DNA of 64,000 bases from positions 192,001-256,000 of the IMG/VR virus record IMGVR_UViG_3300023170_004399. One strand, given 5' to 3'. Under the pieces are notes generated by a model. The model saw only the letters and a list, made by a program, of their open reading frames with translations. It searched no databases and was not told the origin of the DNA. The stretch is from a virus (taxonomy: Duplodnaviria; Caudoviricetes). This document shows, piece after piece, positions 800 through 59,837 of the stretch (position 1 is the first letter of the stretch; each line of letters starts with the position of its first letter). Both the position numbers and the translations under genes were made by a program.

Positions 800-900
800 G
801 ACTGTAGTTGCAGTCACATATGGTCATGATACGGGCACGACGAGATGCTTGCTTTCAAAAGCCGGTGGAGACCATCAAAAAAAACCCGTATCTCTTTTTT
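800..900 (+). ncRNA. candidate structured RNA / leader upstream of thyX
   Basis: GC-enriched intergenic DNA: hairpin GACTG/CAGTC (800-815), 8-bp stem GATACGGG(828-835)/CCCGTATC(885-892) enclosing GCTT/AAGC and GGT-GGAG-ACC hairpins, followed by a T tract. Confidence 0.4.
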
Positions 901-922
901 ATATAACATTGGTAGAAGTAAA

Positions 923-1645
923 ATGAAAATAGAAATATATAATGACGGAATTGGAAGTGTAGAATATGTACAACACATGGGCGAAGACATCACTGTAGTA
1001 AATAGTGCTCGTGTTTCTTTTGGCAAACAGAAAGATAATGTTGATGACAAAGATAAAAAATTAATTAATTATCTCATAAAACATAAGCACACTAGCACAT
1101 TAGAGCACAATGTTATAACTTTTAGGTTTGTCGTACCTTTATTTATCAGGTCTCAACATCACAGACACAGAACATGGTCTTACAATGAAATAAGCAGGCG
1201 TTATACAGATGTTAACTTAAATTTTTACAAACCTAAAAAATTTAGAACACAGCATACAAGTAATAGACAAGCTTCTAATCCGGATGAATTAATCAATCCC
1301 CGGGTTTACCCAACATTAAGTTTGATAAAAGCATCTGAATTATTAGAGTGCAGAATTAGTGATTGTTTGCAAACGTTTAATGATCTAATAGATGTTGGTG
1401 TTTGTAGAGAACAAGCTAGGATGATTTTACCTCAGTGTTTATATACGGAATACTACGGGACTTGTAATTTAAATAACCTTTTAAAGTTTTGTGCCTTAAG
1501 ACTTCACGATGGTGCTCAGTGGGAAATACAGCAAGTGGCAAAAGCATGCTTAAAAATTGCAAAAAAACATTGGCCAATAACTGTGAATGCATGGATAAAT
1601 AATCTTTCAGATGAGGATCTTAAAGCAGAATTCCTATCTGTGTAA
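923..1645 (+). CDS. thyX: FAD-dependent thymidylate synthase
   Basis: RHRTWSYNEISRRY ThyX signature, HTSTLEH, AREQAR-like motif; start moved to ATG 923 (MKIEIY). Confidence 0.95.
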   Translation: MKIEIYNDGIGSVEYVQHMGEDITVVNSARVSFGKQKDNVDDKDKKLINYLIKHKHTSTLEHNVITFRFVVPLFIRSQHHRHRTWSYNEISRRYTDVNLNFYKPKKFRTQHTSNRQASNPDELINPRVYPTLSLIKASELLECRISDCLQTFNDLIDVGVCREQARMILPQCLYTEYYGTCNLNNLLKFCALRLHDGAQWEIQQVAKACLKIAKKHWPITVNAWINNLSDEDLKAEFLSV

Positions 1646-7300: not shown

Positions 7301-7959
7301 TCGATGAGATTATTGATATGCGTCCATATAAATCTTTTAAAGATATGTTTTGGGATGAAGATGGAAAGTGGAAACTCAAAAAGTTTAATAAGCGTGCTGT
7401 AGATTCTTTGTTGAAGATAAAAGCTTTTGATTCTTTTGATGAAATAGGTGAAGGTAAACTATTTTGTTCTTACCAGCATGCTTACGATGTTATTATTAAC
7501 AACTGGAATGATTTGCGAAAGTCTCTTAAGAAAGAGCCTGATTATGGTCAAAGAGTATTTCATGAAAAAATAGAAGAGTTACATGGTACGCCTGAATGGA
7601 CAAAGCTTGAGTTTTGCACAAATAAGATGAATTTAATCGGTGCTTTCAATGTAAATGATATTATTTCAGATGAAATACTAAACAAGATACAGACTAGAGG
7701 TATCAAACCTATAAATGAAATGGAGCCCAATTCAAAAGGTTTGTGCTGGTTTGTTATACTAAAAACTACTGTACGTTTAACAAAAAACAAAAAGAAGTAT
7801 TTATCGTTACAAGTCGTTGGCAATGATGGTTCTGAATATAGAATGTTTTTGTGGGGCTGGAATGGCGACCCAATAGAACCATATACTTTTTGTGGTGCTG
7901 AAGTCTCGCATAATAGTTTTGGTTATTCTACTAAACAAAAAGTTTTGAAAACTTTGTAA
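4360..7959 (+). CDS. dnaE: DNA polymerase III alpha subunit (family C)
   Basis: PHP motifs HSHSGFS, TDHG, SACLGG, DSHY; GRGSGAGS; catalytic PDIDTD; RHAGGV; KFDLLGL; YRPGP; YGFNKSHA. Confidence 0.97.
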   Translation: MIKKPTRFVGLHSHSGFSTFDGLDYPNEHIDFCRENGLDAFALTDHGHMNGFAHAYLHTKKLNDAGANFKFIPGCEMYVHPDLDVWSLDHQIQKAAKQGDQAAINKLNAQREKIITPLFDRTDSDDELEDIEIINDTNQLTIENEEETKSGKFYDPVKRRHHLVVLPKTNNGIQKVMHLVSRGYLEGFFRFPRIDYKMLREAGKDGDLIISSACLGGPFAYEIFKHMQQVEFDHLHPDLLDRPGMQERVLNDMGNVLDQLSWAVGLENVFLELQFNKLSAQHLVNKALLLFAEKHNLQNQLVVTCDSHYSRPDHWKERELYKKLGWLNYKDFNPENMPSSKEDLKCELYPKNSKQVWESYIETTQEYPGIYNDTIVCDAIERTYDIAHDVIDHDMSVDTSMKLPSYVIPENMSPDKALLEACKKGLVARGKHTDQAYIDRLKMELTVIREKGFSAYFLTMKKMLDIARREMFVGPGRGSGAGSLVAWTLNITDMDPIEYGLLFERFLSIHRKGYPDIDTDVGDRDRLIQMLRDEFSAENVIPISNYNTFKLKTLVKDISRFYGIPFEESNNALKTVENDVISAIRGPGFNRGTFVLEYKDALEHSDKFRDFIEKYPMIAEPINVLFKQNKALGRHAGGVIVSENIAERMPLIRAKGEAQTPWTEGMTSQLEKFGWIKFDLLGLGTLRIIQDCIKMILREKTGKFEPSFKEIQDWYNKNLAPDTIDHDDQEVYKNVYHDGNFVSTFQCVNAGAQRLFMKCKPTSIVDLATLTSIYRPGPLQAHVDKLYHKQKSNPDIIDYKHPLIKECLEETAGCIIFQEQVMNLCHVVAGFPKEDCDMIRRKLMKRKIGEMGGPDPEVKIAFVKGAVENGVPEKVADKLFEDILYFAGYGFNKSHAVAYAMISYQCAYLLTHFQEHWVKAVLNSTANDPKAQAKAITEIKSLGYGLVPIDINLAEKNWTIVDGKKLMPSFYSCKGIGETALDEIIDMRPYKSFKDMFWDEDGKWKLKKFNKRAVDSLLKIKAFDSFDEIGEGKLFCSYQHAYDVIINNWNDLRKSLKKEPDYGQRVFHEKIEELHGTPEWTKLEFCTNKMNLIGAFNVNDIISDEILNKIQTRGIKPINEMEPNSKGLCWFVILKTTVRLTKNKKKYLSLQVVGNDGSEYRMFLWGWNGDPIEPYTFCGAEVSHNSFGYSTKQKVLKTL

Positions 7960-7973
7960 AGACTTAGTATAAT
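7945..7973 (+). promoter_or_regulatory. sigma70-type promoter for modification operon
   Basis: TTGAAA-17 bp-TATAAT upstream of the kinase gene. Confidence 0.6.
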
Positions 7974-8003: not shown

Positions 8004-8480
8004 ATGAATTATGGTATTATTCTTGACGGCGCAGAGCAGCAAGGTAAATCAACCCTTGCTGCAAAGCTAAGCAAGTTATTAGGATATCCAATCAGACATT
8101 TCGATAAACCACCCGAAAATTTTGATTTTTGGGAAGATTATTTTATTGAAGCAGAAAGCAATTGTCCATGGTTATTAGATAGATGTTTTACTAGCGAGTT
8201 GGTTTATGGCAAATATTTTAATCGTAGTAGAATAAGCGATGAACATAAAGCTCGTTTAGAAAAAAGATTTACTGACTTAAATTACATGTTTGTTCTTTGT
8301 GAATTGGATAATGATTGGATTGATAGAGAAGAGACTGTAACAAAAGAACAAAATATAGAAATAAAAAAATTATATAGGGACATGTATAATAATCTTAACA
8401 TGCCTAAAATAATCGTTAGACCTGATGAAAACGGTATTAAACAAATATTAAAACTACACAATAAAATTATAGGAGAATAA
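8004..8480 (+). CDS. dNMP (thymidylate-like) kinase
   Basis: P-loop ILDGAEQQGKST and LLDR motif of the TMK family. Confidence 0.8.
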   Translation: MNYGIILDGAEQQGKSTLAAKLSKLLGYPIRHFDKPPENFDFWEDYFIEAESNCPWLLDRCFTSELVYGKYFNRSRISDEHKARLEKRFTDLNYMFVLCELDNDWIDREETVTKEQNIEIKKLYRDMYNNLNMPKIIVRPDENGIKQILKLHNKIIGE

Positions 8481-10289
8481 ATGACTACTAAAACAGCACT
8501 TATGTTAACACTCGGACACAATAGCTCTGCAGTATACTTTGATGGAAAAAAATTAATAGGTTATGAGGAAGAGAGGTTAAATAAAGTAAAATCATCTTCT
8601 GCTTATCCAGCACTTGCAATTGAAGAGATAATGAAACATACTGATATAAAACCCGGTTCTAAAGTTTTTGTATCTCACTGGTTTAATGATTATGACTTTT
8701 ACGAAAAACAATGTAAATATTTTGACACCGATCATTTTAATACTTTGTGTAAAAAGTTTGACCTCACACCAGTACACTTAAGTGATGATTTTACTCATCA
8801 TGATGCGCATGCTTTTTCTGCTATTGGGTTTGCTAGATATCACTATATTAAAAATGCTAGCGAATATAATAAAAGAGCACATGGCAATAAAATGCACACT
8901 ATAGTTGCAGATGGTTTTGGCAATGATCATGAAGTAGTGTCTATATATGAATCTGATATTATTAAAGAGAAAGGTGACGGATGGCAAAGAAATGACATAT
9001 CTCAACCAAAACTAATATTCAGACACAAAGGTTACTGTGAAAGTCTAGGTTTAATGTATCAATATGCAGTTGATTATGTTGGTATGAAAATGAACCAAGA
9101 TGAATATAAATTTTTAGGTTATGAATCATCTATAACTAAAGTTTTAAGTAGTGAAGAATTAAGTGAATTAAAAAAGTATGCTGATCATGTTGCTGAGATG
9201 CAATTTCACAATATGATTATGCATGAAAACTTAATACATCATAAAATAAATGAACCACATATTGTCAATAAAGAAAGTCTGAAATATACGCACACGTATT
9301 GGTTTAATATATATAACACTTTGATGGATCGCTGTGTTGGCGGTGGTAAATCAGCATTGCACACAAATGAACTGAGAGTTGTTATTGGTCATTTCGTTCA
9401 AACAGTTATTGAATCTGTATTGTTAAAAATTTGTAATCACTTCAATATTGAAAATGTTGCTCTTGCTGGTGGAATATTCTATAATGTTAAACTTAACAAT
9501 GTAATCATGAATAAAGTGAAAGGCCTCTTCTCTGTTATGCCTCTTGCTGGTGATCAAGGTTGCGGACTAGGTATGTATGAAGCATTCTGTGGTTCACTTA
9601 ATTACAACACTTTAAAAATTGGTAAAAGACCACCACAAAATTCTTATTACAATTTTATTGATGATGAAATAAAAAACAACGTGTATTATTTCAAAGATGT
9701 TGAAGAAGCAAAAAAACAGCTTACTACATTTCTGTCACATAATAAAATTGTTAATGTTGTAAGAAGCAATATGGAATTTGGTCCTCGTGCCTTGTGTAGT
9801 ACTACTACTTTTGCCTTACCTCTCAAGTCTAATGTTGAATTTATAAACACAATGAATTCTAGAAATACTGTTATGCCTATGGCTCCGGTAATGAGAATGA
9901 AAGATGCTAGCAAATATTTCAAAGCAGATAATTTTAAAAGAGTACTAGGATCAGATGAGTTTATGATATTAACTTACTATTACACTAGTGACAATCTAGA
10001 CTTGGTAAAGATTGGTGGTGTATGTCACAAGCATCCAACTCTAGATACATATTCTGGTCGTCCACAGTTTGTAACTGAGAATAGCGATGAATTTACATTT
10101 GATGTATTAACTTCTCTTTCAGAAGATCATGATCTTGACCCTATTGCAATCAATACTAGTTTTAATTCACATGGCACTCCTATTGTTTTTGATTTAGATA
10201 GTGTTTTTAAAAGTTTTAGATTTGAATATGATAAAGCAAAAACAAATGGTGTAAAACTTCCTTTCCTGTTTATCGTGGAAGGTGAATAA
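8481..10289 (+). CDS. NodU/CmcH/TobZ-family carbamoyltransferase
   Basis: HNSSA, EEERLN, HHDAHA, ADGFG, SLGLMY, AGG-YNVKLN, AGDQG, MEFGPRAL, NTSFNSHGTPI. Confidence 0.93.
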   Translation: MTTKTALMLTLGHNSSAVYFDGKKLIGYEEERLNKVKSSSAYPALAIEEIMKHTDIKPGSKVFVSHWFNDYDFYEKQCKYFDTDHFNTLCKKFDLTPVHLSDDFTHHDAHAFSAIGFARYHYIKNASEYNKRAHGNKMHTIVADGFGNDHEVVSIYESDIIKEKGDGWQRNDISQPKLIFRHKGYCESLGLMYQYAVDYVGMKMNQDEYKFLGYESSITKVLSSEELSELKKYADHVAEMQFHNMIMHENLIHHKINEPHIVNKESLKYTHTYWFNIYNTLMDRCVGGGKSALHTNELRVVIGHFVQTVIESVLLKICNHFNIENVALAGGIFYNVKLNNVIMNKVKGLFSVMPLAGDQGCGLGMYEAFCGSLNYNTLKIGKRPPQNSYYNFIDDEIKNNVYYFKDVEEAKKQLTTFLSHNKIVNVVRSNMEFGPRALCSTTTFALPLKSNVEFINTMNSRNTVMPMAPVMRMKDASKYFKADNFKRVLGSDEFMILTYYYTSDNLDLVKIGGVCHKHPTLDTYSGRPQFVTENSDEFTFDVLTSLSEDHDLDPIAINTSFNSHGTPIVFDLDSVFKSFRFEYDKAKTNGVKLPFLFIVEGE

Positions 10290-10912
10290 TGAAAATTAAA
10301 ACAATTATAAAACCTGAATATGAAAATGACGATTATCTTTTAGAATTGTCAGGAGTGCCTGATTGTCAAGAATTGCAAAATATAGAAGGCGTTGATTTTG
10401 ATTATTTGCATTTTAAATATCAAAAATTTAAAAATATTGATACTGCAGTTGAGGGCTGGGAACAATTTGGTTCCCGGCCGTCTTTGAGAAGTCTAAGCGA
10501 AATGAATGGTCAATTAACTTCTACAGTGTACACGAATGCTGTAAGTAAAAATAATGAAAACTTAAGCTATGATGCCAGTATTAAAATTATTAATTCAATG
10601 TTAAGTAAAAACCCAAATACTAGAAGGGCATTTGTTAGATTTGCATCACCTCTGTCAGAATATTATGTAAGCACTCATTCTCCTATAGATGTAACATGTC
10701 TTAGCGCAATACATTATTTAAAAGACAGCTGTAAATTAATATTCAGGGCTTCAGATATTAAGAATGAACTGTTGTATGACATTATTACTATTAACTCATT
10801 CTTTTTGTCACCAATATATAAAGATAAAAATTACAACATAAAAGTATATGCTAGCACTGCACAAAATATTGAATATTGGGAAGACACAATGAAAATACTT
10901 GGTAGAATATAG
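10289..10912 (+). CDS. degenerate thymidylate-synthase-fold protein
   Basis: LSKNPNTRRA, VTC (catalytic-Cys position), RASD-x7-D; no recognisable HIY motif or N-terminal folate-site region. Confidence 0.6.
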   Translation: MKIKTIIKPEYENDDYLLELSGVPDCQELQNIEGVDFDYLHFKYQKFKNIDTAVEGWEQFGSRPSLRSLSEMNGQLTSTVYTNAVSKNNENLSYDASIKIINSMLSKNPNTRRAFVRFASPLSEYYVSTHSPIDVTCLSAIHYLKDSCKLIFRASDIKNELLYDIITINSFFLSPIYKDKNYNIKVYASTAQNIEYWEDTMKILGRI

Positions 10913-10922
10913 TGGAGGAAAT

Positions 10923-11759
10923 ATGAGTAGTTTTGATAAAATATTTACTGATCTAAATGAAATGGGTGAATCTTTAGAAACAAGAGGTTTGTTAGTTATG
11001 GAAATGGAAAACTATAGCTATACTTTAGCCCCTTATGAAAGATATGTATCGTACCCAGCTAGAAAAATGAAACTTAACTATATTAAAAAAGAGTTTCTTT
11101 GGTATCTTAAAGGCGATAAATATGATACTAGTATTTGTGATCATGCTAAAATGTGGAAAGATTTAATTAACGAAGATGGTTCGATTAATTCAAACTATGG
11201 ACAGTATGTTTTTGGTAGCCAGTTTCAATATGGCAAAGTTATTGATACATTAAGAAAAGATAAGAATTCTAGAAGAGCAAGTATAATGATTTTATCTCAA
11301 GCTCATTTGGCAACTGAGACAAAAGATTATCCGTGTACGTATTCTATCAACTTTAGAATTAGAAACAATAGATTAAACATGACTGTTAGAATGAGAAGTC
11401 AAGATGCTATATTTGGTATGACTAATGATGCGCCATGTTTTTCCTTTATACACGAAATGGTTTACGTGCACCTTAGAGATTTAAAATACCCCGATCTTCT
11501 ATTAGGTGATTATCACCACTCAGCTGACAGTTTTCATATATACGCTAGACACTTTAAAATGTTTAAAAATATACTTGAAAATATTAGGAATAGGGAATAT
11601 AATACAATACAAACACCGAGAATAAGCTCTGGTGCAGAAGTTAGATACCTTAGAGGTTTGCATATCCACAGAGAAAATCATAAAGGTACTGATGAAGATT
11701 TTATAAAATCAATTAAAGAAGAATATAAATTTACAAAATGGTTATTAAGCGAGGATTAA
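10923..11759 (+). CDS. dCMP hydroxymethylase-type thymidylate synthase homolog
   Basis: KKEFLWY, SNYG, SRRA, YPC, RSQDAIFGMTND (Asp at the position that is Asn177 in E. coli ThyA and Asp179 in T4 gp42), SFHIYARH. Confidence 0.85.
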   Translation: MSSFDKIFTDLNEMGESLETRGLLVMEMENYSYTLAPYERYVSYPARKMKLNYIKKEFLWYLKGDKYDTSICDHAKMWKDLINEDGSINSNYGQYVFGSQFQYGKVIDTLRKDKNSRRASIMILSQAHLATETKDYPCTYSINFRIRNNRLNMTVRMRSQDAIFGMTNDAPCFSFIHEMVYVHLRDLKYPDLLLGDYHHSADSFHIYARHFKMFKNILENIRNREYNTIQTPRISSGAEVRYLRGLHIHRENHKGTDEDFIKSIKEEYKFTKWLLSED

Positions 11760-11763
11760 AAAT

Positions 11764-12204
11764 ATGAGTACAATGAAAATATCAAAAATACGTAAAGTAA
11801 AAACACCGACAAGAGGAACTGATCAAAGTGCTGGTTTAGACTTCTATATCCCAGATGACTTTGATCTAAAGAGATTATCTCCTGGTATGAGTGTCTGTAT
11901 ACCATCAGGCATTAAAGCTAATGTTCCAGCTGGTTATGCTCTTATAGCTTTTAATAAATCTGGTGTGGCATTGAAAAAAGGTTTACAGGTTGGGGCTTGT
12001 GTAGTCGATGAAGATTATCAAGGTGAAATTCATTTACACTTAATGGCTACAAAAAGCACAGAGTTAAAACCGGGAGAAAAAATAGTGCAGTTTGTGTTAT
12101 TACCGGTAAATTATTCTACCGTTTCAGTTGTGCCTGAAGAAGATTTGTTTGTTGAACAAACAGAAAGAGGTGCTGGTGGTTTTGGTTCAACGGGAGTAGA
12201 ATAA
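11764..12204 (+). CDS. dut: trimeric dUTPase
   Basis: SAGLDF, NKSG, VVDEDYQGE, QFVL, RGAGGFGSTG. Confidence 0.93.
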   Translation: MSTMKISKIRKVKTPTRGTDQSAGLDFYIPDDFDLKRLSPGMSVCIPSGIKANVPAGYALIAFNKSGVALKKGLQVGACVVDEDYQGEIHLHLMATKSTELKPGEKIVQFVLLPVNYSTVSVVPEEDLFVEQTERGAGGFGSTGVE

Positions 12205-13214
12205 TGAGAAAAATATGTGTAACTGGTGGTTTAGGCTTTATTGGTGGGGAGTTCGTCAAAGAAGTATTAGCTAAGTATGATGACACAATTGTTTTCATTA
12301 TTGATGATGAATCAAATCCAACCTATGAGCCAAGTGATTTTGGAGTAAAGGTAAGATGTCTTTTGTTTGGCATGGTGCCTCATTATGACTTGCAGAAAGA
12401 CATAAAAGAAAATAATATAAAAATTGTATCGATACAAGGTGATTGTTCTAGTGATCTTGCTTTAAATTTTATTGCTAACAATGATATATCACATGTTTTT
12501 CATTTCGCAGCTAAGCCTCGCGTAGAATGGACAGTTGAAAACCCTGTTGAGTCAACAGTTGAAAATTTTGTAAATGTAATAGACATAGCAAAAGTTTGTG
12601 CTGATAACAATATTCGTTTAGTACATTCTTCCACTTCAGCTGTATACGGAAATCAATTTATACCTGCACATGGTTTACCTGAAAATGTTAGTCAATATCA
12701 CCCAGCTAGTCCTTATGCAGCTGCTAAATTATCCGCAGAAGTATATCTCGACATGTATAAAAAATTATATAACTTGGATTATGTTGCATTTAGATATTTT
12801 AATGTATATGGTGAAACGCAATTGGGAGATTCACCTTACGCAACGGCAGTATCCGCTTGGAAACATCGATGTGAAATAGGTATGCCTTTACGATCTGATG
12901 GTGACGGAGAACAAGCTCGAGATATGATACATGTACGTGATGTTGCACGTGCTAATTTAAACCTAGGTTTTTCAAATAAGATCGGCGTATTTAATGTCGG
13001 TACTGGAAAAAAATATACTAACAATTTTATACTTTCAAAATTCCATGATGCTGGTTTTACAAATGTAACAAATGCGCCTGAAAGACCAGGTGATGTTAAA
13101 TACACATTGGCAGATATTACAAAAATAATAAACACGGGTTTATGGAAACCTGAGATTAAGTTTGAAGATGGTTTAGAAAGAGTTATTAGGAGCATTAATG
13201 TTGTGGAAAAATAA
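12204..13214 (+). CDS. NAD-dependent nucleotide-sugar epimerase/dehydratase (extended SDR)
   Basis: VTGGLGFIG, HSSTSAVYG, PYAAAK (YxxxK), FRYFNVYG, RDMIHV, FNVGTG, RPGD. Confidence 0.92.
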   Translation: MRKICVTGGLGFIGGEFVKEVLAKYDDTIVFIIDDESNPTYEPSDFGVKVRCLLFGMVPHYDLQKDIKENNIKIVSIQGDCSSDLALNFIANNDISHVFHFAAKPRVEWTVENPVESTVENFVNVIDIAKVCADNNIRLVHSSTSAVYGNQFIPAHGLPENVSQYHPASPYAAAKLSAEVYLDMYKKLYNLDYVAFRYFNVYGETQLGDSPYATAVSAWKHRCEIGMPLRSDGDGEQARDMIHVRDVARANLNLGFSNKIGVFNVGTGKKYTNNFILSKFHDAGFTNVTNAPERPGDVKYTLADITKIINTGLWKPEIKFEDGLERVIRSINVVEK

Positions 13215-13587
13215 AGTATTTGATTATGACGTTGTACAAAAAAGCTGGGGTAATATTAAAACTTTTTCTAGCCCATGGGGAGCAACAGGAAAAATTTTAA
13301 ACATAAGTGCTGGCAAAAGTACATCATTTAAGTATTACGATATTAAAAATGAACTTATGTTCTGTTTGTCTGGGACTGTACTAGTTTACAGCCCTAACTC
13401 TGATGAATTTACTGAAATTAAGAATAATGAAAATAAGACAATAATTAAACTTTGTGAAGGTGAAAGTATTTGTATTGAAAGGAACACGCCATATAAGATA
13501 GTTGCAATTGAAGATAGTCAGTTAGTTGAAGTAGTTTCTGGTGTTCGCCGGGGATTTGATGAGCCTATAAAATACGATAAAGAATAA
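13198..13587 (+). CDS. cupin-fold protein (mannose-6-P isomerase-like)
   Basis: WG..KILNISAGKSTSFKYY..KNE...LSG and GESICIERNTPYKI; usual metal-binding His residues replaced by Tyr. Confidence 0.6.
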   Translation: MLWKNKVFDYDVVQKSWGNIKTFSSPWGATGKILNISAGKSTSFKYYDIKNELMFCLSGTVLVYSPNSDEFTEIKNNENKTIIKLCEGESICIERNTPYKIVAIEDSQLVEVVSGVRRGFDEPIKYDKE

Positions 13588-13599
13588 GGAATATATAAA

Positions 13600-14448
13600 A
13601 TGTTAGTTGAACCAACATCTGTAAATTGTGTAATCTATCATGCTAATTGCAATGATGGATTTGGAGCTGCATATTCAGCTTGGAAACTTTTAGGTAATCG
13701 TTGTGAATACATACCTTGTGTTCATGGTGAAACACCACCAGATGTAACTGGTAAAAAAGTAGCAATATTAGATTATTCTTTCAGTAACAAAGTTACTAAA
13801 AAATTAATGAAACAAGCGGAGTCACTAATAGTAATAGATCATCACAAATCAAACATGGTTGAATTACATGATTTAACTAACACTATATTCGATTTAAATA
13901 AGTCTGGTGCCATGTTGGCTTGGGAGTTTTTTCATCCCGGGAAAGAACCTCCTAAATTTATACAGTACATAGAAGATAGAGATCTTTGGAAATGGGAGCT
14001 GCCTTATTCTAAAGAATTCTCAGCAGCATTTGACATGGTACCATGGGACTTTGATGAATATGAAAAATTTGAAGATGACAGTGTTTTTGATGATGCTGTT
14101 AAACGTGGTTCGTATATTTTAGCCTATAGTAAGACTGTTATTAAAAAGGTGTGCGACAAAGCTGTTAGAAGATCATATAAAGACATGGATGTAATGGTTG
14201 TCAACAGTTCACACTGGATATCAGAAATAGGCGCTAATTTAGCTAAGGATTGTGACTTTGCTATGATATGGTATTATGATCACGATGAAAAAAATTATAG
14301 ATGTTCGTTACGGGCTTTTCATGATACTGTCGACGTAAGTGAAATAGCAAAACAGTTTAACGGTGGCGGTCACAGGAAGGCAGCTGGTTTTACACTGCCA
14401 TTTACTAAACACCCAGATTGTATATTTAAAGGAAACAATGATAAGTAG
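13600..14448 (+). CDS. DHH/DHHA1-family phosphoesterase
   Basis: YHANCNDGFGAA, IDHH, EDRDLW, GGGHRKAAGF. Confidence 0.9.
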   Translation: MLVEPTSVNCVIYHANCNDGFGAAYSAWKLLGNRCEYIPCVHGETPPDVTGKKVAILDYSFSNKVTKKLMKQAESLIVIDHHKSNMVELHDLTNTIFDLNKSGAMLAWEFFHPGKEPPKFIQYIEDRDLWKWELPYSKEFSAAFDMVPWDFDEYEKFEDDSVFDDAVKRGSYILAYSKTVIKKVCDKAVRRSYKDMDVMVVNSSHWISEIGANLAKDCDFAMIWYYDHDEKNYRCSLRAFHDTVDVSEIAKQFNGGGHRKAAGFTLPFTKHPDCIFKGNNDK

Positions 14449-14866
14449 ATATAAACAAAAATTAAATGTATTCGGTGAAATATGTAAATCAGTTGCGTCA
14501 CTATCGTACGACCCTAAATTTAAAGTAGGGACTGTAATTTTCACTGATGATTTTAGAGAAATATTAGCTATTGGTTATAATGGCAATTACAAAGGCGGGC
14601 CTAATAAACGTGACAGTAATGAGACAGGTAAAAGTGGTTTTTTACATAGCGAAGAAAATGCTTTGCTTCATTTGTCATACCCTTTCGCAAGTAGGGATAA
14701 GTTGATATTAATGGTTACTTATAAACCTTGTCCTATGTGTGCTAAGCGAATAGTAAATGCTGGTATAAAAAAGGTAATTTATATAAATGATTATAATAAA
14801 CTCGGGGATGAAACGGATGACATATTTAGTATAGGGAATGTTGTTTGTGAGAAACTCGGAGAATAA
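14438..14866 (+). CDS. dCMP deaminase-family protein
   Basis: AIGYNG, HSEENA, PCPMC zinc motifs; start moved to ATG 14438. Confidence 0.88.
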   Translation: MISRYKQKLNVFGEICKSVASLSYDPKFKVGTVIFTDDFREILAIGYNGNYKGGPNKRDSNETGKSGFLHSEENALLHLSYPFASRDKLILMVTYKPCPMCAKRIVNAGIKKVIYINDYNKLGDETDDIFSIGNVVCEKLGE

Positions 14867-14867
14867 T

Positions 14868-16358
14868 ATGAGAAATCACATAAATGACTCGTTAGAGTCA
14901 TTAACTTTTTTGTTAGATGAAACCATATTACTTTTGAATGATAGTATTCTGACAGAAGGTTTACTTGACGATGTTTATAAAAACATTGACATGAAAGATA
15001 CACAAAATATCATAGACGCTTTAAAATCATCTATAGAACCAGTTTTAGAAGCAATAGATGAAGCAAAAAAAGATTCACCAGTACCATTACGTGAGTTTCT
15101 ATTTAGCGGCCGTTTGCGTGAAATACTGGGTGTTTTAGAAAATTTAAATAAAGAAGAAGAACAAACAAAAATAAAAATAGCATTATTGTTCTTAGCTGAG
15201 GTCAAAGACGCTCTGCAACTATTAAACATATTCATGGTAGGACTAGGTAGATATTATCAAAATTCAGACTTTTACAAAAACAGAGATTTTGAAACTAGTG
15301 GACCCGGCAATATGAAAGTTGGCGAAGCTAATTTAGTATACATGATAAAGTTAGATGATGCAGCCAAACAAAAGATTATGGCAGACGAAAATGCTAAAAC
15401 TATTCTTACTAAGTTAGTTGAAAATTATAACAAAATGTACCAAGATATTACAGCTGCTATTGGCAATGTTATTAACAATGGTGCATTGTCTAAGTTAGCA
15501 AAATACGAAAAATCTAGTTTTTTTGGCTTTATAAAATCTGATGTGAAGAATGATGATGCTGTTGAGCTGCTAAATGATTTAGAAGAAGAGTGTAAAAAAT
15601 TATTAGGTCCAATTGACAATCTTAAGAAAAAATTTAATGCAGACAAAATGGGGTTTGCGTTCTTGTTATCTCCAATAACTGTTGAGAACATGGCTTTGAA
15701 ATTAAGAGGATCAGCGGAAAGCGTAGATAATGCCACAGCAAAAGCCGAAGATTTACACGATGATATGCAAGCTGCAGAAACTGAAATGAAAGAAAAAGAA
15801 GGGGAATCATTTGCCGATTTAAAATCTGAAGTTGGCGAATCATTTGTTGACAAGTTTTACAATTTTGCAAAAGGCATTGGTTTAGATGACGAAAAAATCA
15901 AAAAAGCTTTTGTTGTATTAGCAGATAAAAAAGATCAGATTAAGTCATACTTAGGATTGAAAAAAGAATCTTTTACAAGGATGAATTTGAGCTTATTATT
16001 TGAAGTTGATGAAAAATCTGAAAGCTTTATTAAATTTATAAATCAACTGTTGAAAGATTTAGGTGCAGAATATAAGGAAGACGACGTTAAAAAGTTTGTC
16101 TCTTCTCTAGATAGCGGTGTAGAAGACACTCAATCAAAACCAGCTATCAAATTAACACGAGGACAACACAGAGAGTTTATAAAAAACTTTATGCAACCAC
16201 CCGCGGGATCTGACAAGAAACATATGTTCCAGTACTTACAAAGTGTCAAATCAAAACCGGCAACAGATAAAAAAGTTGCAACTACTATAGGGAAACATAT
16301 GAATAAAGCAATTAAGGCAACGGGTAAAGATAAATTTGCAATATTCCCTGAGGAATAA
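14868..16358 (+). CDS. hypothetical helical protein, probable virion/head protein
   Basis: GGAG RBS; leader ending ILTE and internal MNLSLLFE motif shared with other probable head proteins. Confidence 0.7.
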   Translation: MRNHINDSLESLTFLLDETILLLNDSILTEGLLDDVYKNIDMKDTQNIIDALKSSIEPVLEAIDEAKKDSPVPLREFLFSGRLREILGVLENLNKEEEQTKIKIALLFLAEVKDALQLLNIFMVGLGRYYQNSDFYKNRDFETSGPGNMKVGEANLVYMIKLDDAAKQKIMADENAKTILTKLVENYNKMYQDITAAIGNVINNGALSKLAKYEKSSFFGFIKSDVKNDDAVELLNDLEEECKKLLGPIDNLKKKFNADKMGFAFLLSPITVENMALKLRGSAESVDNATAKAEDLHDDMQAAETEMKEKEGESFADLKSEVGESFVDKFYNFAKGIGLDDEKIKKAFVVLADKKDQIKSYLGLKKESFTRMNLSLLFEVDEKSESFIKFINQLLKDLGAEYKEDDVKKFVSSLDSGVEDTQSKPAIKLTRGQHREFIKNFMQPPAGSDKKHMFQYLQSVKSKPATDKKVATTIGKHMNKAIKATGKDKFAIFPEE

Positions 16359-55679: not shown

Positions 55680-56777
55680 GTGGAAACTAGATTATATATT
55701 AAATACAAAGATGGAAATCAAAAAAACATGTATGTTGATTACCCTGTTAAAAGCAATGGGTATTCTGGCACTACAATAGGAGAATTGGTTTTTAATACTA
55801 GTATGACTGGGTATCAGGAAATTTTAACTGATCCATCATATAAAGGTCAAATAGTATTGATGACTGCTAATCATATTGGAAACACGGGAGTAAACACTGC
55901 AGATGTAGAATCTGAAAGGGTTTGGCCTCGAGGTTTATTGGCTAGGAATATTGACTTAATTAAAAAACCTAGCAACTGGAGATCAGAGAAAAATATAGTT
56001 GAATACTCTAAGGAAAATAAGTTTTCACTGGTTAGTGGTATTGACACTAGATATATCACTAAATTAATTAGAAATAATACGAATGTTGTTGCATGTATAT
56101 CTAGTGAGGATAGAAACTCTGTTAAGAAATTGTTAGATCAATTTAGTTATGAAGATGAATCTAAAGCTTCTGATGCTTCTAGATCATTTACTGTAAATAA
56201 AACAAAAACTGGCAATGGTTTTAAAGTTAACTTAATAGATTGCGGTTACAAAAGTAATATCTCGAGATTATTAACTAAGTATGGTTGTGATGTCACAGTC
56301 GTTAATGTAAATGACAGTTTATTTAATTGGACAAATGACTGTGATGCTTTATTTTTTAGTAATGGACCAGGCGATCCCACTGTTATGACAGAGGCTATCG
56401 ACAAGATTAAATCTATAATGGGAACAAAGCCAATGTTAGGTATATGCATGGGTCATCAGCTGATATCACTTGCTATAGGCGGGAAAGTTTACAAAATGCC
56501 GTTTGGCCACCGCGGTGCAAATCATCCAGTTATAGATTTAAAAACTAAAAAAATAGCTATAACTAGTCAAAATCACGGTTATTGTGTTGATAGAAGTATT
56601 GGTGAAATAGCGACAATAACACATATAAATTTAAATGATCAAACGGTGGCTGGAATTGAGTGTTATAAAAACAAGGTTTCTAGTGTACAATATCATCCTG
56701 AAGCCAAACCTGGCCCAGAAGAAAGTAACAAACTAATAGAACAATTTATTGAATTTGCAAGGAGTTTTAATGCCTAA
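55680..56777 (+). CDS. carA: carbamoyl-phosphate synthetase small subunit
   Basis: [55 protein letters not shown] (Cys-His-Glu triad intact). Confidence 0.97.
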
Positions 56778-59469
56778 AAGAAATGATATCAAAAAAATTA
56801 TGGTTATAGGTTCAGGACCTATAGTAATTGGACAAGCATGTGAGTTTGATTATTCAGGTACACAAGCTTGTAAGGTACTTAAGAATTTAGGGTACGAGGT
56901 TGTATTACATAACTCAAATCCGGCAACTATTATGACTGACCCAGAATTTGCTGATGCTACATACATTGAACCTTTGACAGCAGAATACGCTAAAAAGATT
57001 ATTGAGAAAGAAAAACCATGTGCAATATTACCAACAGTCGGTGGTCAAACTGGTTTAAATCTAGCAATGGAGTTATATAAGTTAGGTGTTTTAGATGAGC
57101 ACAACGTTGAATTAATTGGGGCAAAGCCTGATGCAATAGAAATTGCTGAAGATAGAGAAATGTTTAAAAATAAGATGATTGAAAAAGGTATACCAGTTGC
57201 TCCTTCTGGTATAGCTCATAACTTAGATGATGCGAAACAAATATTGAATGATATTGGTTTACCATTAATTATCAGACCTTCATACACATTAGGCGGAGAA
57301 GGCGGTGGTGTTGCCATGACAGAACAAGAATTTTATTCAATAGTTTCATTAGGTTTAGATTTAAGTCCTATCAGTCAAGTGCTTATTGAAAAAAGTGCAT
57401 TAGGTTGGAAAGAATTTGAAATGGAATTAATCAGAGACAAAGATGATAATGCTATTGTAGTTTGTTCTATAGAAAACTTTGATCCTATGGGTGTACATAC
57501 TGGTGACAGTATTACTGTTGCTCCAGCACAAACGTTAACTGATGTAGAGTATCAAAAAATGCGTACAATGTCTTTTGATGTTATTCGTGCAGTCGGTGTA
57601 GAAACTGGTGGTTCAAATATTCAGTTTGCTGTCGATCCTGAAACTGGTTATATGTTTGTTATAGAAATGAATCCTCGTGTGTCGAGAAGTTCTGCTTTGG
57701 CTTCAAAGGCTACTGGCTTCCCTATAGCAAAAATAGCAGCGCAGTTAGCAGTTGGTTTAACATTAGGTGAAATAAACAATGATATAACTAAAAAGACACC
57801 AGCTTGTTTTGAACCAGCTTTAGACTACACTGTTGTAAAAATACCCAGATGGAATACAGAAAAATTCAAAGGTGCAACCAGTACCTTAACTACACAAATG
57901 AAGGCTGTCGGGGAAGTAATGTCCATTGGCACCAGTTTTAGTGAAGCAATGCAAAAAGCACTTTTATCATTAGAGCTTAAGTTGCCTAGTTACAACTTAG
58001 TAGCAACTGAAGATTTGTTAGAAGATATTAAAGTGCCACAACCTGATAGAATATTTAAAATACTTGAGTTGATGTCACGTAATACTCCTATATCTGATAT
58101 ACATAATTTAACAAAGATAGACACATGGTTTTTAGAAAACATGTTTGCTGAGACCAAGCTAGATAACACTGTCTTTAAAATGGTTGACACTTGCGCAGCT
58201 GAATTTAAATCAGAAACGCCATATTTGTATAGCACTACTGGCTATGAGTGTGAATTACCAATAGATAAATCAAACATTGTAACGATATTAGGCAATGGTC
58301 CAAATAGAATAGGGCAAGGTCTTGAATTTGATTACTGTTGTGTACATGCGAGCATGGCTTTGAAAGAGTTAGGTTACACTAGTGCAATGGTTAACTGCAA
58401 TCCGGAAACTGTTTCAACTGATTATGACACTAGTGATATATTGTTCTTCGAACCTATTACAAAAACATATGTTGATAATATTGTAAAGACATTAGACACA
58501 AATCTAATAGGTTCCATTGTTCAGTTTGGTGGTCAGACACCTCTTAAGTTGGCTAATCAAATAGGTAATATTTGTGGTACTGATCCTGAATCTATTGACA
58601 TATGTGAAGATAGAGAATTGTTTAATAACATGATTAAAGATTTAGGCTTCAAACAACCACCAGGTTTTATTGCTGCTAGTATATCAGATGCGCATAAAGC
58701 AAAAGATGAATTAGGTTACCCAGTATTGGTTAGACCTTCTTATGTTTTAGGTGGTAAGTGTATGCACGTTTGTTATAATGATGTAGAATTTAATAGTGCA
58801 GTTACAAAGGCTTATGATGCTAGTAATGGGAAGCCGCTTTTGGTAGATAAGTTTTTATCAAATGCAATAGAATATGATGTTGATGTTGTTTGCGATAAGT
58901 TTGGTAACTATGAAATAGCTGCTGTAATGGAACACATAGAAGAAGCTGGTATACATTCTGGTGATTCTTCTTGTATTATACCATCACTATCATTAACGAA
59001 AAAACAGCGTAGTAAAATAGAAACAATATGTGATAAGCTATGTGATGTCTTGAATGTAGTAGGACTAATGAATATTCAGTTTGCTATTAAAGAAGATGAG
59101 GTTTATATTATAGAAGTCAATCCTCGAGCAAGCCGGACTGTACCTTTTGCTAGTAAGGCAACTGGTGTACCATGGGCAAAGATAGCAACCTACATGTGTA
59201 TGGGTGAAAACCTAAATGAGACAATGAAGAAGTTTAAAAGAAATAGAAAGAATTTGTTTTATGTTAAATCACCAGTCTTCCCATGGAGAAAATTCTCTGT
59301 TGATGATACATTGTTAGGACCAGAAATGAAAAGTACTGGTGAAGTAATGGGTGTTGGAAGTACGTGGCATGAGGCTTATCTAAAAGCTTTGTTAGCAAGT
59401 GGCATTAATGTTAAGAAAAGATCTAATATACTGATCTCTATTGCTGACAAAGATAAAAGTAATTTATAA
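56770..59469 (+). CDS. carB: carbamoyl-phosphate synthetase large subunit (two ATP-grasp domains; stops at the start of the MGS domain)
   Basis: [73 protein letters not shown]. Confidence 0.96.
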
Positions 59470-59837
59470 AGTCACGTGATTATTTAAAACATTTGATAAA
59501 TGATTTTGGTTGTGAAATATATGCTACTAAAGGCACGTATGAAATATTGACATCGATGGGATTAGAAGTTAACTTGTCTGAGAAATTCCTTGCAGGACAG
59601 AATAGCTCAATAAGTTTGATAGCAAATAAAAAAATCGATTTAGTATTAAACACAACCAGTGGTGAAGAACATATTAATGAAGAAGCAAAATTGAGGTTAG
59701 CGTGTTTAAGGCAGGATATACCTTGTATAACAAGTTTATTTGCAATGACAAAGTTAATAAAAGCTATAGCCTCAAAAGCTGATAAAGAAAAAATAATTGT
59801 TAGAAGTTTACAACAAATAGGGGATAATAATGATTAA
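59463..59837 (+). other. carB: CarB C-terminal MGS (allosteric) domain in the -1 frame
   Basis: After ...ADKDKSNL* the -1 frame continues [21 protein letters not shown]...IDLVLNT...LRLACL..IPCITS. Confidence 0.85.

What the first reader, a model, noticed from the sequence alone, without database searches (positions are those of the whole stretch)
8004..14866. Cytosine hypermodification operon: hydroxymethylase plus carbamoyltransferase plus kinase
Seen: nine tightly coupled genes behind a TTGAAA-17-TATAAT promoter. The TS homolog at 10923 reads RSQDAIFGMTND. Established: the twelfth residue of this motif is Asn in dUMP-using ThyA (E. coli N177) and Asp in T4 dCMP hydroxymethylase (D179), so this is a dCMP-type enzyme; dTMP is supplied separately by ThyX. 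NodU/CmcH carbamoyltransferases next to such genes have been reported to make 5-carbamoyloxymethylcytosine. Inference: this phage makes hmC and carbamoylates it. The extra genes (second TS fold, epimerase, cupin, DHH) suggest a more complex or additional modification than the known one.
Basis: partly seen in the sequence, partly recalled or inferred. Interest (0 to 1): 0.8.

Follow-up and report, generated by a model that had tools for sequence, protein, structure and literature searches.

The report
Jumbo-phage carbamoyl-hydroxymethylcytosine DNA modification operon
An uncultured marine jumbo phage carries a real nine-gene operon that most likely replaces cytosine in its DNA with 5-hydroxymethylcytosine and carbamoylates it, a pathway known since 2021. 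New here are a second, shortened thymidylate-synthase-like enzyme of unknown role and the phage's own carbamoyl-phosphate synthetase.

Summary
Nine translationally coupled + strand genes lie between a TTGAAA-17-TATAAT promoter (7945-7973) and a terminator-like hairpin (14883-14902). In order they are: a P-loop kinase, a NodU/TobZ-type carbamoyltransferase (CT), a short TS-fold protein (sTS), a TS homolog, dUTPase, a 4-epimerase-like SDR, a cupin, a DHH phosphoesterase and dCMP deaminase.

The TS homolog aligns best with T4 dCMP hydroxymethylase. Its Cys matches C148 and its Asp matches D179.

The CT belongs to the phage clade that sits beside Asp-type TS genes (72 of 83 loci). It shares signature motifs with the 5hmC carbamoyltransferase proven by Yang et al. 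2021, so the core pathway is already known. This scan has also reported it on other DNA.

Three things are new here:
- sTS is a small, conserved TS-fold family. It keeps the catalytic Cys and the cytosine-type Asp, and I found it only in CT-bearing contigs.
- The window encodes CarA/CarB, the carbamoyl-phosphate donor pathway. In another viral contig carB lies directly upstream of the CT.
- The SDR and cupin recur as an accessory pair in some relatives, but no glycosyltransferase was found.

dUTPase, DHH and the deaminase look like ordinary nucleotide supply. Nothing here tests the chemistry itself.

The parts
7945..7973 (+). Sigma-70-like promoter TTGAAA-17-TATAAT. It overlaps the end of the DnaE gene.
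   Evidence: It scores 11 of 12. The exact pattern occurs twice in 64 kb against 0.12 expected.
8004..8480 (+). P-loop nucleoside/nucleotide kinase (AAA_28, 158 aa). Inferred to be the hm-dCMP kinase, analogous to T4 gp1.
   Evidence: PF13521 2e-08. phrog_761 'thymidylate kinase'. Best PDB matches are SPbeta YorR and the dNK family. A kinase of this fold accompanies the CT in about 63 of 83 loci.
8481..10289 (+). O-carbamoyltransferase of the phage 5hmC-CT clade (602 aa).
   Evidence: Carbam_trans_N and Carbam_trans_C. phrog_1601 6e-56. PDB matches are NovN, GdmN and TobZ. Invariant THHDAH and MEFGPRAL-C-x-TTT motifs are shared with the Yang 2021 enzyme.
10289..10912 (+). sTS: a short (207 aa), diverged thymidylate-synthase-fold protein. 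Its function is unknown and it is probably catalytic on a cytosine nucleotide.
   Evidence: No Pfam, PHROG or NCBIfam hit. hhalign against the neighbouring TS homologs gives 92% probability, E 8e-7. The AF2 model has pLDDT 97. Foldseek top hits are MilA and T4 dCH; VIA gives Z 13-14. Cys137, Arg153 and Asp164 are each 97% conserved in 74 members.
10923..11759 (+). TS homolog (278 aa), inferred to be a dCMP hydroxymethylase.
   Evidence: PF00303 1.2e-21. Best PDB matches are T4 dCH 1b49 (4e-16) and MilA. Asp aligns with D179 and Cys with C148. GGAGG lies 6 nt upstream of the ATG.
11575..11603 (+). Second exact TTGAAA-17-TATAAT match, inside the TS gene and 160 nt upstream of dut. A possible internal promoter.
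11764..12204 (+). Trimeric dUTPase (146 aa).
   Evidence: PF00692 1e-21. TIGR00576 7e-27. Relatives carry thymidine kinase or dUTPase at this position.
12204..13214 (+). Extended SDR that resembles a UDP-hexose/HexNAc 4-epimerase (336 aa).
   Evidence: PF01370 6.6e-38. Best PDB matches are 6dnt 4e-43, 6wjb and 4zrm. It has the GxxGxxG and YAAAK motifs. Present in 12 of 83 CT loci.
13198..13587 (+). Small viral cupin (129 aa).
   Evidence: phrog_7851 1.4e-11. Atlas neighbours are viral Cupin_2/MannoseP_isomer clusters, score 0.97-0.98. It recurs after the SDR in L006, L017 and L019.
13600..14448 (+). DHH/DHHA1 phosphoesterase (282 aa, NrnA-like).
   Evidence: phrog_4771 3.5e-80. DHHA1 1e-06. 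Weak NrnA matches in PDB.
14438..14866 (+). dCMP deaminase. The likely start is the ATG at 14438. The HSEE and PCPMC zinc motifs are intact.
   Evidence: PF00383 1.9e-15. phrog_174 1e-33. Sequence read.
14883..14902 (+). Terminator-like hairpin followed by a T run, 17 nt after the deaminase stop.
845..1645 (+). ThyX, a flavin-dependent thymidylate synthase. It supplies dTMP.
   Evidence: PF02511 4.8e-48.
55680..56777 (+). CarA, the small (glutaminase) subunit of carbamoyl-phosphate synthetase.
   Evidence: GATase 3.1e-47 and CPSase_sm_chain 1.2e-38.
56749..59469 (+). CarB, the large subunit of carbamoyl-phosphate synthetase (906 aa, both ATP-grasp halves). Inferred to supply the carbamoyl donor for the CT.
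   Evidence: CPSase_L_D2 1.8e-110 and CPSase_L_D1 4.4e-84. In contig L033 carB lies 31 nt upstream of the CT.
59493..59837 (+). Separate 114-aa ORF holding the MGS-like (allosteric) domain that normally ends CarB.
   Evidence: PF02142 5.8e-15.

Best explanation
The operon is the nucleotide-supply and cytosine-hypermodification module of a large marine T4-like phage that replicates with a DnaE-type polymerase.

Proposed pathway:
1. The TS homolog (10923-11759) converts dCMP and methylene-THF into 5-hydroxymethyl-dCMP.
2. The P-loop kinase (8004-8480) phosphorylates it, host NDP kinase completes the triphosphate, and the phage polymerase incorporates it.
3. The TobZ-type carbamoyltransferase (8481-10289) uses ATP and carbamoyl phosphate to carbamoylate the 5-CH2OH. 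This happens on the nucleotide or on nascent single-stranded DNA and gives 5-carbamoyloxymethylcytosine.
4. The phage's own CarA/CarB make at least part of the carbamoyl phosphate.
5. dCMP deaminase, dUTPase and ThyX channel part of the dC pool to dTMP.
6. The DHH enzyme probably recycles short oligonucleotides into mononucleotides.

Shown here: gene identities, folds, catalytic and specificity residues, synteny, co-occurrence and purifying selection.

Inferred: every chemical step, the kinase's substrate, the link between CarAB and the CT, and the timing of carbamoylation.

Unexplained: the short TS-fold protein and the SDR-cupin pair.
For: TS homolog:
- Its best solved relatives are T4 dCMP hydroxymethylase (4e-16) and MilA.
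- Asp aligns with D179 and Cys with C148. The PDB entry 6l18 title names the D179N mutant binding dTMP.
- Yang et al. show that Asp at E. coli position 177 marks modified-cytosine contigs.

Carbamoyltransferase:
- Both TobZ domains are present and the THHDAH metal motif is invariant.
- It shares LTLGHNxSA, SLGLMYQYA...DEYK(L/F)LGY, NMEFGPRALC(N/S)TTT and NTSFNxHGxPI with the enzyme shown to make 5cmdC. NovN has GPRALGNRS at that site.

Context:
- In 83 CT loci, 72 have a TS homolog within 8 kb and nearly all of these read RSxDxxxGxxxD.
- The order DnaE-kinase-CT-sTS-TS...deaminase is kept in contigs whose CT is only 41-50% identical.

Carbamoyl donor:
- CarA and CarB are encoded in the window.
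- carB is directly upstream of the CT in an unrelated 168-kb viral contig.

Other:
- ThyX is present.
- dN/dS is 0.02-0.07 for the seven genes that could be compared.
Against: - No chemistry was measured, and the phage is uncultured.
- No dCTPase was found in the window: there is no MazG/gp56 homolog by tblastn or Pfam inventory. How unmodified dCTP would be excluded is therefore open; the rest of the roughly 270-kb genome could not be searched.
- CarAB is absent from three near-complete relatives. It could instead serve pyrimidine or arginine synthesis.
- Sequence cannot separate hydroxymethylase from methylase activity in the TS homolog.
- The conserved sTS has no role in this scheme, so the end product may differ from plain 5cmC.
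Confidence: 0.7

Rival explanations
1. 5-carbamoyloxymethyl-C is an intermediate, or only one of several products. The short TS-fold enzyme, and in some phages the SDR plus cupin or an ATP-grasp enzyme, carry the chemistry further.

One possible route: Cys attacks C6, the carbamate leaves, and a new nucleophile adds to the exocyclic methylene. The final base would then be something not yet described.
For: - sTS keeps the catalytic Cys (97%), the phosphate-binding Arg residues, R-A-S-D, the cytosine-type Asp (97%) and a Tyr aligned with the window TS homolog's Tyr in SNYGQ (by position the counterpart of E. coli TS Tyr94, my inference).
- Its structural neighbours are cytosine-nucleotide enzymes, including a TS-fold protein deposited as a flavin monooxygenase with dCMP and FAD.
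- All 9 sTS loci found independently in IMG/VR also carry the CT.
- 44 of 74 CT loci have two TS-fold genes.
- The SDR is embedded between sTS and TS in L007 and L014.
- An ATP-grasp gene sits between the kinase and the CT in 7 loci.
Against: - No precedent exists for such a reaction.
- sTS lacks a recognisable equivalent of TS Glu58, and its co-substrate is unknown.
- Many CT phages lack sTS, the SDR and the cupin.
- The validated CT alone gives a stable product in vitro.
Confidence: 0.2
2. The phage makes hmC DNA, but the carbamoyltransferase acts on another acceptor. That acceptor could be a sugar on a glycan or glycosylated base made with the SDR-cupin products, as TobZ, NodU and the cyanophage 'LPS-cluster' carbamoyltransferases act on sugars.
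For: - The solved relatives of the CT carbamoylate sugars or polyketide hydroxyls.
- A 4-epimerase-like SDR lies in the same operon.
Against: - The CT is 37-52% identical to the TS-linked phage clade, but only 22-28% identical, over half its length, to the cyanophage sugar-type enzymes.
- It shares clade-specific motifs with the enzyme proven on 5hmC.
- No glycosyltransferase family was detected among the window's ORFs of 100 aa or more.
- The SDR is missing from most CT loci.
Confidence: 0.07
3. This is ordinary nucleotide metabolism. The TS homolog would be a dCMP methylase or a dUMP enzyme, the gene clustering would carry no pathway meaning, and the DNA would carry no hmC-based modification.
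For: - dUTPase, dCMP deaminase, DHH and the kinase are common phage nucleotide genes.
- All TS-family NCBIfam scores for the TS homolog fall below the trusted cut-offs.
Against: - ThyX already supplies dTMP.
- The Asp at the specificity position argues against dUMP.
- The tight, widely conserved linkage to a carbamoyltransferase needs a hydroxyl acceptor.
Confidence: 0.03

Closest known systems
5-hydroxymethylcytosine carbamoyltransferase / 5cmdC pathway of uncultured phages (Yang et al. 2021, eLife 10:e70021, PMC8670742)
   Same: - A TobZ-type two-domain CT sits next to an Asp-type TS homolog and a dCMP deaminase.
- The CT shares signature motifs with the validated enzyme.
- The predicted product is 5-carbamoyloxymethylcytosine.
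   Different: - This one sits in a jumbo-phage replisome operon behind DnaE.
- It carries a trimeric dUTPase where that study reports MazG/PRA-PH as the co-occurring pyrophosphohydrolase domain; no MazG was found in the window.
- It adds a second, short TS-fold protein, an SDR, a cupin and a DHH enzyme.
- The phage encodes CarA/CarB.
- I did not compute identity to the validated enzyme, because that would have required typing in its sequence.
T4 pre-replicative hmC pathway (gp42 dCMP hydroxymethylase, gp1 dNMP kinase, gp56 dCTPase, Cd dCMP deaminase, alpha/beta-glucosyltransferases)
   Same: - A TS-fold hydroxymethylase with Cys148 and Asp179 equivalents.
- A dedicated kinase and a dCMP deaminase.
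- The hydroxymethyl group is decorated afterwards.
   Different: - The decoration is carbamoyl, not glucose, and no glycosyltransferase was found.
- dTMP comes from ThyX, not a ThyA-type Td.
- No gp56/MazG dCTPase is visible in the window.
MilA CMP hydroxymethylase, T4 dCH, and PDB 9iqc (a TS-fold 'monooxygenase dependent on riboflavin with dCMP and FAD'), as the nearest folds to sTS
   Same: - The same TS fold: Z 13.8, 13.2 and 13.7 over 179-190 residues.
- The Cys, Arg-Arg, R-x-S-D and Asp positions are kept.
   Different: - sTS is 30-110 residues shorter.
- It is not detected by PF00303.
- The deep family profile has no significant sequence match in the PDB.
- Gly173 of the RSxDxxxG motif is replaced by Glu.
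- Its substrate and co-substrate are unknown.
Bacterial CarAB carbamoyl-phosphate synthetase
   Same: The full domain set is present: a glutaminase subunit, two ATP-grasp halves, an oligomerisation domain and an MGS domain.
   Different: - It is phage-encoded.
- The MGS domain is a separate ORF.
- No aspartate or ornithine carbamoyltransferase was seen in the window, whereas a DNA-base carbamoyltransferase is present.

Membership tests
Phage 5hmC carbamoyltransferase (TobZ/NodU-type O-carbamoyltransferase) | Two-domain architecture: a Kae1-like N domain plus a YrdC-like C domain | tested here: met
   PF02543 3.3e-10 and PF16861 5.4e-24. phrog_1601 6e-56 over residues 6-579.
Phage 5hmC carbamoyltransferase (TobZ/NodU-type O-carbamoyltransferase) | Metal-binding His motif of the N domain and the carbamoyl-phosphate/ATP site motif of the C domain | tested here: met
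   THHDAH (residues 105-110), MEFGPRAL and NTSFNxHG are invariant in 27 homologs. Assigning these motifs to the metal site and the ATP site is from my knowledge of TobZ.
Phage 5hmC carbamoyltransferase (TobZ/NodU-type O-carbamoyltransferase) | Sequence signature shared with the experimentally validated enzyme rather than with sugar/polyketide carbamoyltransferases | tested here: met
   I compared motifs by reading. PRALC(N/S)TTT occurs in the window CT and in the Yang enzyme, whereas NovN reads PRALGNRS. Whole-length identity was not computed.
Phage 5hmC carbamoyltransferase (TobZ/NodU-type O-carbamoyltransferase) | Genomic linkage to an Asp-type TS homolog | tested here: met
   It is adjacent in the window. 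72 of 83 loci of this clade have a TS homolog within 8 kb, and nearly all of these carry Asp.
Phage 5hmC carbamoyltransferase (TobZ/NodU-type O-carbamoyltransferase) | Carbamoylation of 5hmC in DNA or in 5hmdCTP | not testable with these tools
   This needs an enzyme assay or LC-MS.
dCMP hydroxymethylase (T4 gp42 type) | TS fold with the catalytic Cys | tested here: met
   PF00303 1.2e-21. The Cys in YPCTYS aligns with T4 C148.
dCMP hydroxymethylase (T4 gp42 type) | Asp in place of TS Asn177 (T4 D179), giving cytosine specificity | tested here: met
   RSQDAIFGMTND aligns column for column with T4 RSNDVVFGFRND, residues 168-179. The Asp is invariant in 6 orthologs.
dCMP hydroxymethylase (T4 gp42 type) | Water addition (hydroxymethyl) rather than hydride transfer (methyl) | not testable with these tools
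   It is inferred only from the linked carbamoyltransferase, which needs a hydroxyl.
Thymidylate synthase superfamily (for the 207-aa sTS) | TS fold | tested here: met
   AF2 model with pLDDT 97 and pTM 0.93. 372 Foldseek matches at E<=0.001, and all 50 listed are TS-family entries, led by MilA at 1.5e-7. VIA gives Z 13.8, 13.7 and 13.2; the first match that is not a TS fold scores Z 4.6.
Thymidylate synthase superfamily (for the 207-aa sTS) | Recognition by the curated family model PF00303 | tested here: not met
   No Pfam, PHROG or NCBIfam hit. Homology shows only by profile-profile comparison (92%, E 8e-7) and by structure.
Thymidylate synthase superfamily (for the 207-aa sTS) | Nucleotide-site residues: Cys, Arg-Arg, Arg-x-Ser-Asp, and Asn/Asp177 | tested here: met
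   Conservation in 74 members: C137 97%, R112/R113 86-89%, R153 97%, D156 89%, D164 97%. The positions were aligned.
Thymidylate synthase superfamily (for the 207-aa sTS) | Folate co-substrate site (Glu58, Trp80/83, Gly173 and the C-terminal residues of E. coli TS) | tested here: inconclusive
   The Gly173 position holds Glu160 (96% conserved), and no Glu58 equivalent is evident in the alignment.
T4-type dCTP exclusion (gp56/MazG dCTPase) | A MazG-like or all-alpha dNTP pyrophosphatase in the module | tested here: not met
   tblastn of two relatives' MazG proteins against the window found nothing. There is no PRA-PH/MazG family in the Pfam inventory of the window's ORFs. Relatives L004, L008, L009 and L017 have one. 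The rest of the genome is not held.
hmC glycosylation systems (T-even glucosyl/arabinosyl type) | A glycosyltransferase linked to the hydroxymethylase | tested here: not met
   No glycosyltransferase Pfam family at E<=1e-3 among the window's ORFs of 100 aa or more. Only the 4-epimerase-like SDR and the cupin point towards sugars.
Carbamoyl-phosphate synthetase CarAB | Small glutaminase subunit plus a large subunit with two ATP-grasp halves | tested here: met
   (GATase, CPSase_sm_chain; CPSase_L_D1 and D2 with two stretches each). The MGS domain is on the next ORF.

The most novel reading that the evidence does not exclude
The short TS-fold protein that travels with the carbamoyltransferase is a second, active cytosine-nucleotide enzyme. 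It would convert the carbamoylated or hydroxymethylated nucleotide into a further C5 derivative not yet described, with the phage's own CarAB feeding the pathway. These marine jumbo phages would then carry a DNA base other than 5cmC.
Probability: 0.2. Interest if true: 0.8.

Novelty: new variant of a known kind. Interest (0 to 1): 0.5.

Why it matters
Hypermodified cytosines let phages escape restriction and CRISPR nucleases, and they provide enzymes for epigenomic sequencing chemistry. The 5hmC carbamoyltransferase is known from one in-vitro study of a metagenomic enzyme. Its natural pathway, the source of its carbamoyl donor and its partner proteins have not been described.

This locus offers three things:
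- It places the pathway in abundant marine and freshwater jumbo phages.
- It links the pathway to a virus-encoded carbamoyl-phosphate synthetase. That would be a new kind of auxiliary metabolic gene use; I found no paper that mentions it.
- It defines a compact new TS-fold family of about 100 sequence clusters. The active-site residues are intact and the reaction is unknown, and the protein is small and easy to express and test.

Tried and rejected
- Near-identical DNA in deposited phages: none.
- Single-protein scans of IMG/VR with the CT and with CarB: no hits. An alignment query was needed.
- The window's own genome is not held. A dCTPase or glycosyltransferase elsewhere in the phage could not be sought.
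- The proteins that follow the CT in the Bacteroides phage and in Acinetobacter phage Effie are not sTS homologs. They are an AAA_28 kinase and a MazG.
- The Bacteroides phage's second TS-like gene shows no significant profile match to sTS.
- CarB hits in the 'phages' collection look like bacterial contamination of those records (about 50% identity, fragment records, unannotated). I did not count them as phage CPSases.
- The neighbourhood of the 59%-identical TS homolog of Ralstonia phage RsoM2USA is entirely 'hypothetical' and told me nothing.
- Complex prediction of CT with sTS returned no verdict (score 0.00). It is neither support nor evidence against binding.
- The deep sTS profile against PDB sequences gave no significant hit, although the 5-sequence profile had reached T4 dCH at E 0.002. 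Homology therefore rests on the profile-profile comparison and on structure.
- I found no publication for PDB 9iqc.
- The apparent shortening of sTS in the Tara contig L006 is a scaffold gap of Ns, not a deletion.
- I did not compute whole-length identity to the Yang 2021 enzyme, because that needed typing in a long sequence. It was not among the 120 listed homologs.

Full report
**What is there.** The window is phage DNA of about 33% GC, and almost all genes are on the + strand. No whole genome is held for it. Earlier notes of this scan describe it as part of an uncultured marine T4-like jumbo phage of about 270 kb (I did not check this).

Upstream of the finding lie three genes:
- ThyX at 845-1645
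- an Fpg/Nei glycosylase at 2101-2940
- a DnaE-type polymerase at 4360-7959

Overlapping the DnaE stop is TTGAAA-17-TATAAT at 7945-7973. The exact pattern occurs only twice in 64 kb, against 0.12 expected. The second copy is at 11575, inside the TS gene.

Nine genes follow, with gaps of 12 nt or less, or overlaps:

| Coordinates | Product |
|---|---|
| 8004-8480 | AAA_28 P-loop kinase |
| 8481-10289 | Two-domain carbamoyltransferase (CT) |
| 10289-10912 | 207-aa protein with no family hit (sTS) |
| 10923-11759 | TS homolog |
| 11764-12204 | Trimeric dUTPase |
| 12204-13214 | Extended SDR |
| 13198-13587 | 129-aa cupin |
| 13600-14448 | DHH/DHHA1 phosphoesterase |
| to 14866 | dCMP deaminase |

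These assignments rest. The deaminase probably starts at the ATG at 14438 rather than the GTG at 14363. A terminator-like hairpin with a T run lies at 14883-14902.

Against a 92%-identical Tara Oceans contig (L006), the six complete genes compared and the N-terminal 74 codons of DHH show dN/dS of 0.02-0.07. sTS and the deaminase could not be compared.

**The TS homolog is a dCMP-type enzyme.** Its best solved relatives are T4 dCMP hydroxymethylase (1b49, 4e-16) and the CMP hydroxymethylase MilA; canonical TSs score far lower. In the printed alignment MRSQDAIFGMTND lies over T4 MRSNDVVFGFRND, so its Asp falls on T4 D179. YPCTYS lies over FMCTNT, so its Cys falls on C148.

The role of that position is documented in Yang et al. 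2021. It is also reflected in the PDB entry for the T4 D179N mutant, which binds dTMP. The Asp is invariant in orthologs from five related contigs. It is present in nearly all TS homologs that flank this CT clade.

**The CT belongs to the 5hmC-carbamoyltransferase clade.** It has both TobZ domains and matches NovN, GdmN and TobZ structures. Its homologs form a large family: 1322 proteins at E<=1e-20.

Cultured phages with 33-39% identical CTs next to TS homologs include:
- the Bacteroides BF486P2 group
- Acinetobacter phages Effie and HHU4
- Xanthomonas phage Xp15

The cyanophage 'Nol-like' enzymes are only 22-28% identical, over half the length.

The enzyme that Yang et al. showed to convert 5hmdC in DNA and 5hmdCTP to 5cmdC is printed in the paper. 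It shares these motifs with the window protein:
- LTLGHNxSA
- SLGLMYQYA...DEYK(L/F)LGY
- NMEFGPRALC(N/S)TTT
- NTSFNxHGxPI

NovN reads GPRALGNRS at the third site. I did not compute whole-length identity.

**Conserved context.** Six relatives reached through the CT keep the order DnaE, kinase, CT, a 207-230-aa protein, TS homolog ... dCMP deaminase ... superoxide dismutase. Their CTs are 39-92% identical to the window's.

In 83 CT-centred loci, the following lie within 8 kb of the CT:

| Gene | Loci |
|---|---|
| TS homolog | 72 |
| Kinase of one of two AAA_28 types | about 63 |
| dCMP deaminase | 34 |
| sTS | 28 |
| dUTPase | 28 |
| SDR | 12 |
| Thymidine kinase | 11 |
| MazG | about 20 |
| ATP-grasp gene between kinase and CT | 7 |
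| DHH | 5 |
| Cupin | 3 |

Locus L017, whose CT is 41% identical, repeats the window's SDR-cupin-DHH run. The core is therefore kinase, CT, TS homolog and deaminase. The SDR, cupin and DHH are accessories of one jumbo-phage lineage.

**The 207-aa protein is a new, short TS-fold family (sTS).** No curated library recognises it.

Evidence for homology with the TS fold:
- A profile of five orthologs reaches T4 dCH at E 0.002.
- Profile-profile comparison with the neighbouring TS homologs gives 89-92% probability, E about 1e-6.
- With a 65-sequence alignment, AlphaFold2 gives pLDDT 97 and pTM 0.93.
- Foldseek then ranks MilA (1.5e-7, TM 0.65) and T4 dCH first, followed by TSs.
- An independent all-against-representatives alignment gives MilA Z 13.8, PDB 9iqc Z 13.7 and T4 dCH Z 13.2. 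9iqc is deposited as a riboflavin-dependent monooxygenase with dCMP and FAD. The first match that is not a TS fold scores Z 4.6.

An exhaustive search of 1.84 billion representatives finds only 100 family members, all about 200 aa long.

Conservation in 74 members:
- Cys aligned with the TS nucleophile: 97%
- Arg-Arg pair: 86-89%
- R-A-S-D: 89-97%
- Asp at the Asn177 position: 97%
- Tyr81, aligned with the Tyr of the TS homolog's SNYGQ motif and by position the counterpart of E. coli TS Tyr94 (my inference): invariant

Gly173 of RSxDxxxG is replaced by a conserved Glu.

All nine sTS loci found independently in IMG/VR are contigs that also carry the CT. Two short contigs show sTS directly upstream of a TS homolog. 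More generally, 44 of 74 CT loci hold two TS-fold genes.

I infer an active enzyme, or at least a specific binder, for a cytosine nucleotide that works with the CT module. I cannot say what it does.

**Carbamoyl donor.** A Pfam inventory of the rest of the window turned up CarA (55680-56777) and CarB (56749-59469). The MGS domain lies on the next ORF. TobZ-type enzymes consume carbamoyl phosphate and ATP.

In IMG/VR contig L033 (168 kb), a 1080-aa carB ends 31 nt before the CT. After the CT come a kinase, two TS-fold genes and a deaminase.

Three near-complete relatives lack carB. It is therefore an occasional booster and not a core part.

I found no paper that links a phage CPSase to DNA modification. 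The carB hits among deposited 'phage' records look like host contamination.

**What the extras probably are.**
- The SDR is closest to UDP-GlcNAc and UDP-Glc 4-epimerases (6dnt, 4e-43) and keeps the GxxGxxG and YxxxK motifs.
- The cupin belongs to small viral Cupin_2/mannose-phosphate-isomerase-like clusters.
- No glycosyltransferase family was detected among the window's ORFs of 100 aa or more. A sugar decoration is therefore unsupported here but not excluded for the whole genome.
- DHH is weakly NrnA-like. With dUTPase and the deaminase, it fits nucleotide salvage.
- No MazG/gp56-type dCTPase is in the window, although several relatives have one.

**Comparison with the known.** The core equals the MetaGPA pathway of Yang et al. 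2021. This scan has already reported several examples on other DNA, each judged a new member of a known system. The differences that make this a variant are the sTS family, the phage CarAB and the SDR-cupin accessory.

**Verdict.**
- Observation: confirmed.
- Novelty: a new variant of a known kind.
- Confidence that the DNA carries carbamoylated hmC: about 0.7.
- Probability that sTS or the accessories take the chemistry further: about 0.2.

Noticed in passing
window 55680-59837: Phage-encoded carbamoyl-phosphate synthetase. CarA is followed by a 906-aa CarB, and the C-terminal MGS/allosteric domain sits on a separate 114-aa ORF 23 nt downstream. This could be a natural split or a frameshift. 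No aspartate or ornithine carbamoyltransferase was seen in the window.
   Followed up: partly
L033:4709-11936 (IMGVR_UViG_3300031992_000018): A 168-kb viral contig has the order carB, CT, AAA_28 kinase, divergent TS-like gene, canonical Asp-type TS, dCMP deaminase. It is the only locus of 83 with carB next to the CT.
   Followed up: partly
L008:6680-7948, L017:6692-8002, also L013-L015, L019, L080: A roughly 430-aa ATP-grasp protein (ATPgrasp_Ter family) is inserted between the kinase and the CT in seven relatives. It is absent from the window and its role is unknown.
   Followed up: no
protein P0090 (733 aa, ENA metagenomes): A natural fusion of the carbamoyltransferase with a dCMP-deaminase domain. 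It is a further sign that the two activities work on the same nucleotide pool.
   Followed up: no
L003:8510-9271 and 11343-12023; many loci: The Bacteroides-phage type of CT cluster also carries two TS-fold genes. One reads the canonical RSNDLVYGFCND. The other is divergent (RSNDIVRNMVYD, or no motif). Two TS folds per CT cluster is common: 44 of 74 loci.
   Followed up: partly
PDB 9iqc / 9iqu / 9ir2: A TS-fold protein deposited in 2025 as a 'monooxygenase dependent on riboflavin with dCMP and FAD' ties for the closest fold to sTS. I found no paper for it in the library.
   Followed up: partly
window 2101-2940; L008:455-1258; L009:38-844; L017:894-1322: An Fpg/Nei-type DNA glycosylase is conserved just upstream of DnaE in this phage lineage. 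The window also has UvdE (44289-45200) and an HhH-GPD glycosylase. That is a large set of repair genes for a phage with modified bases.
   Followed up: no
L007:941-7494 and L009:1819-7362: In relatives the DnaE polymerase gene is broken into several ORFs with Hint/intein domains. In the window it is a single 1199-aa ORF.
   Followed up: no
window 23-583 and elsewhere: D12-class (Dam-like) and MT-A70 adenine methyltransferases are encoded in the window. The DNA is therefore probably also N6-adenine methylated. L009 has MT-A70 and N6_N4 methyltransferases inside the same nucleotide operon.
   Followed up: no
window 52794-54010, 31150-32784, 20741-21448: Other auxiliary genes: ClpS adaptor, adenosine deaminase, Cpn60 chaperonin, peptide deformylase, a sigma-70-family factor, pterin-4a-carbinolamine dehydratase and Fe/Mn superoxide dismutase. 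The last is conserved downstream of the operon in relatives.
   Followed up: no
window 10923-11759 vs MG752970.1 7607-8443: The window's TS homolog is 59% identical to a gene of Ralstonia jumbo phage RsoM2USA, but only about 30% identical to the TS homologs of its own syntenic relatives. This suggests the hydroxymethylase gene was exchanged within a conserved operon frame.
   Followed up: partly
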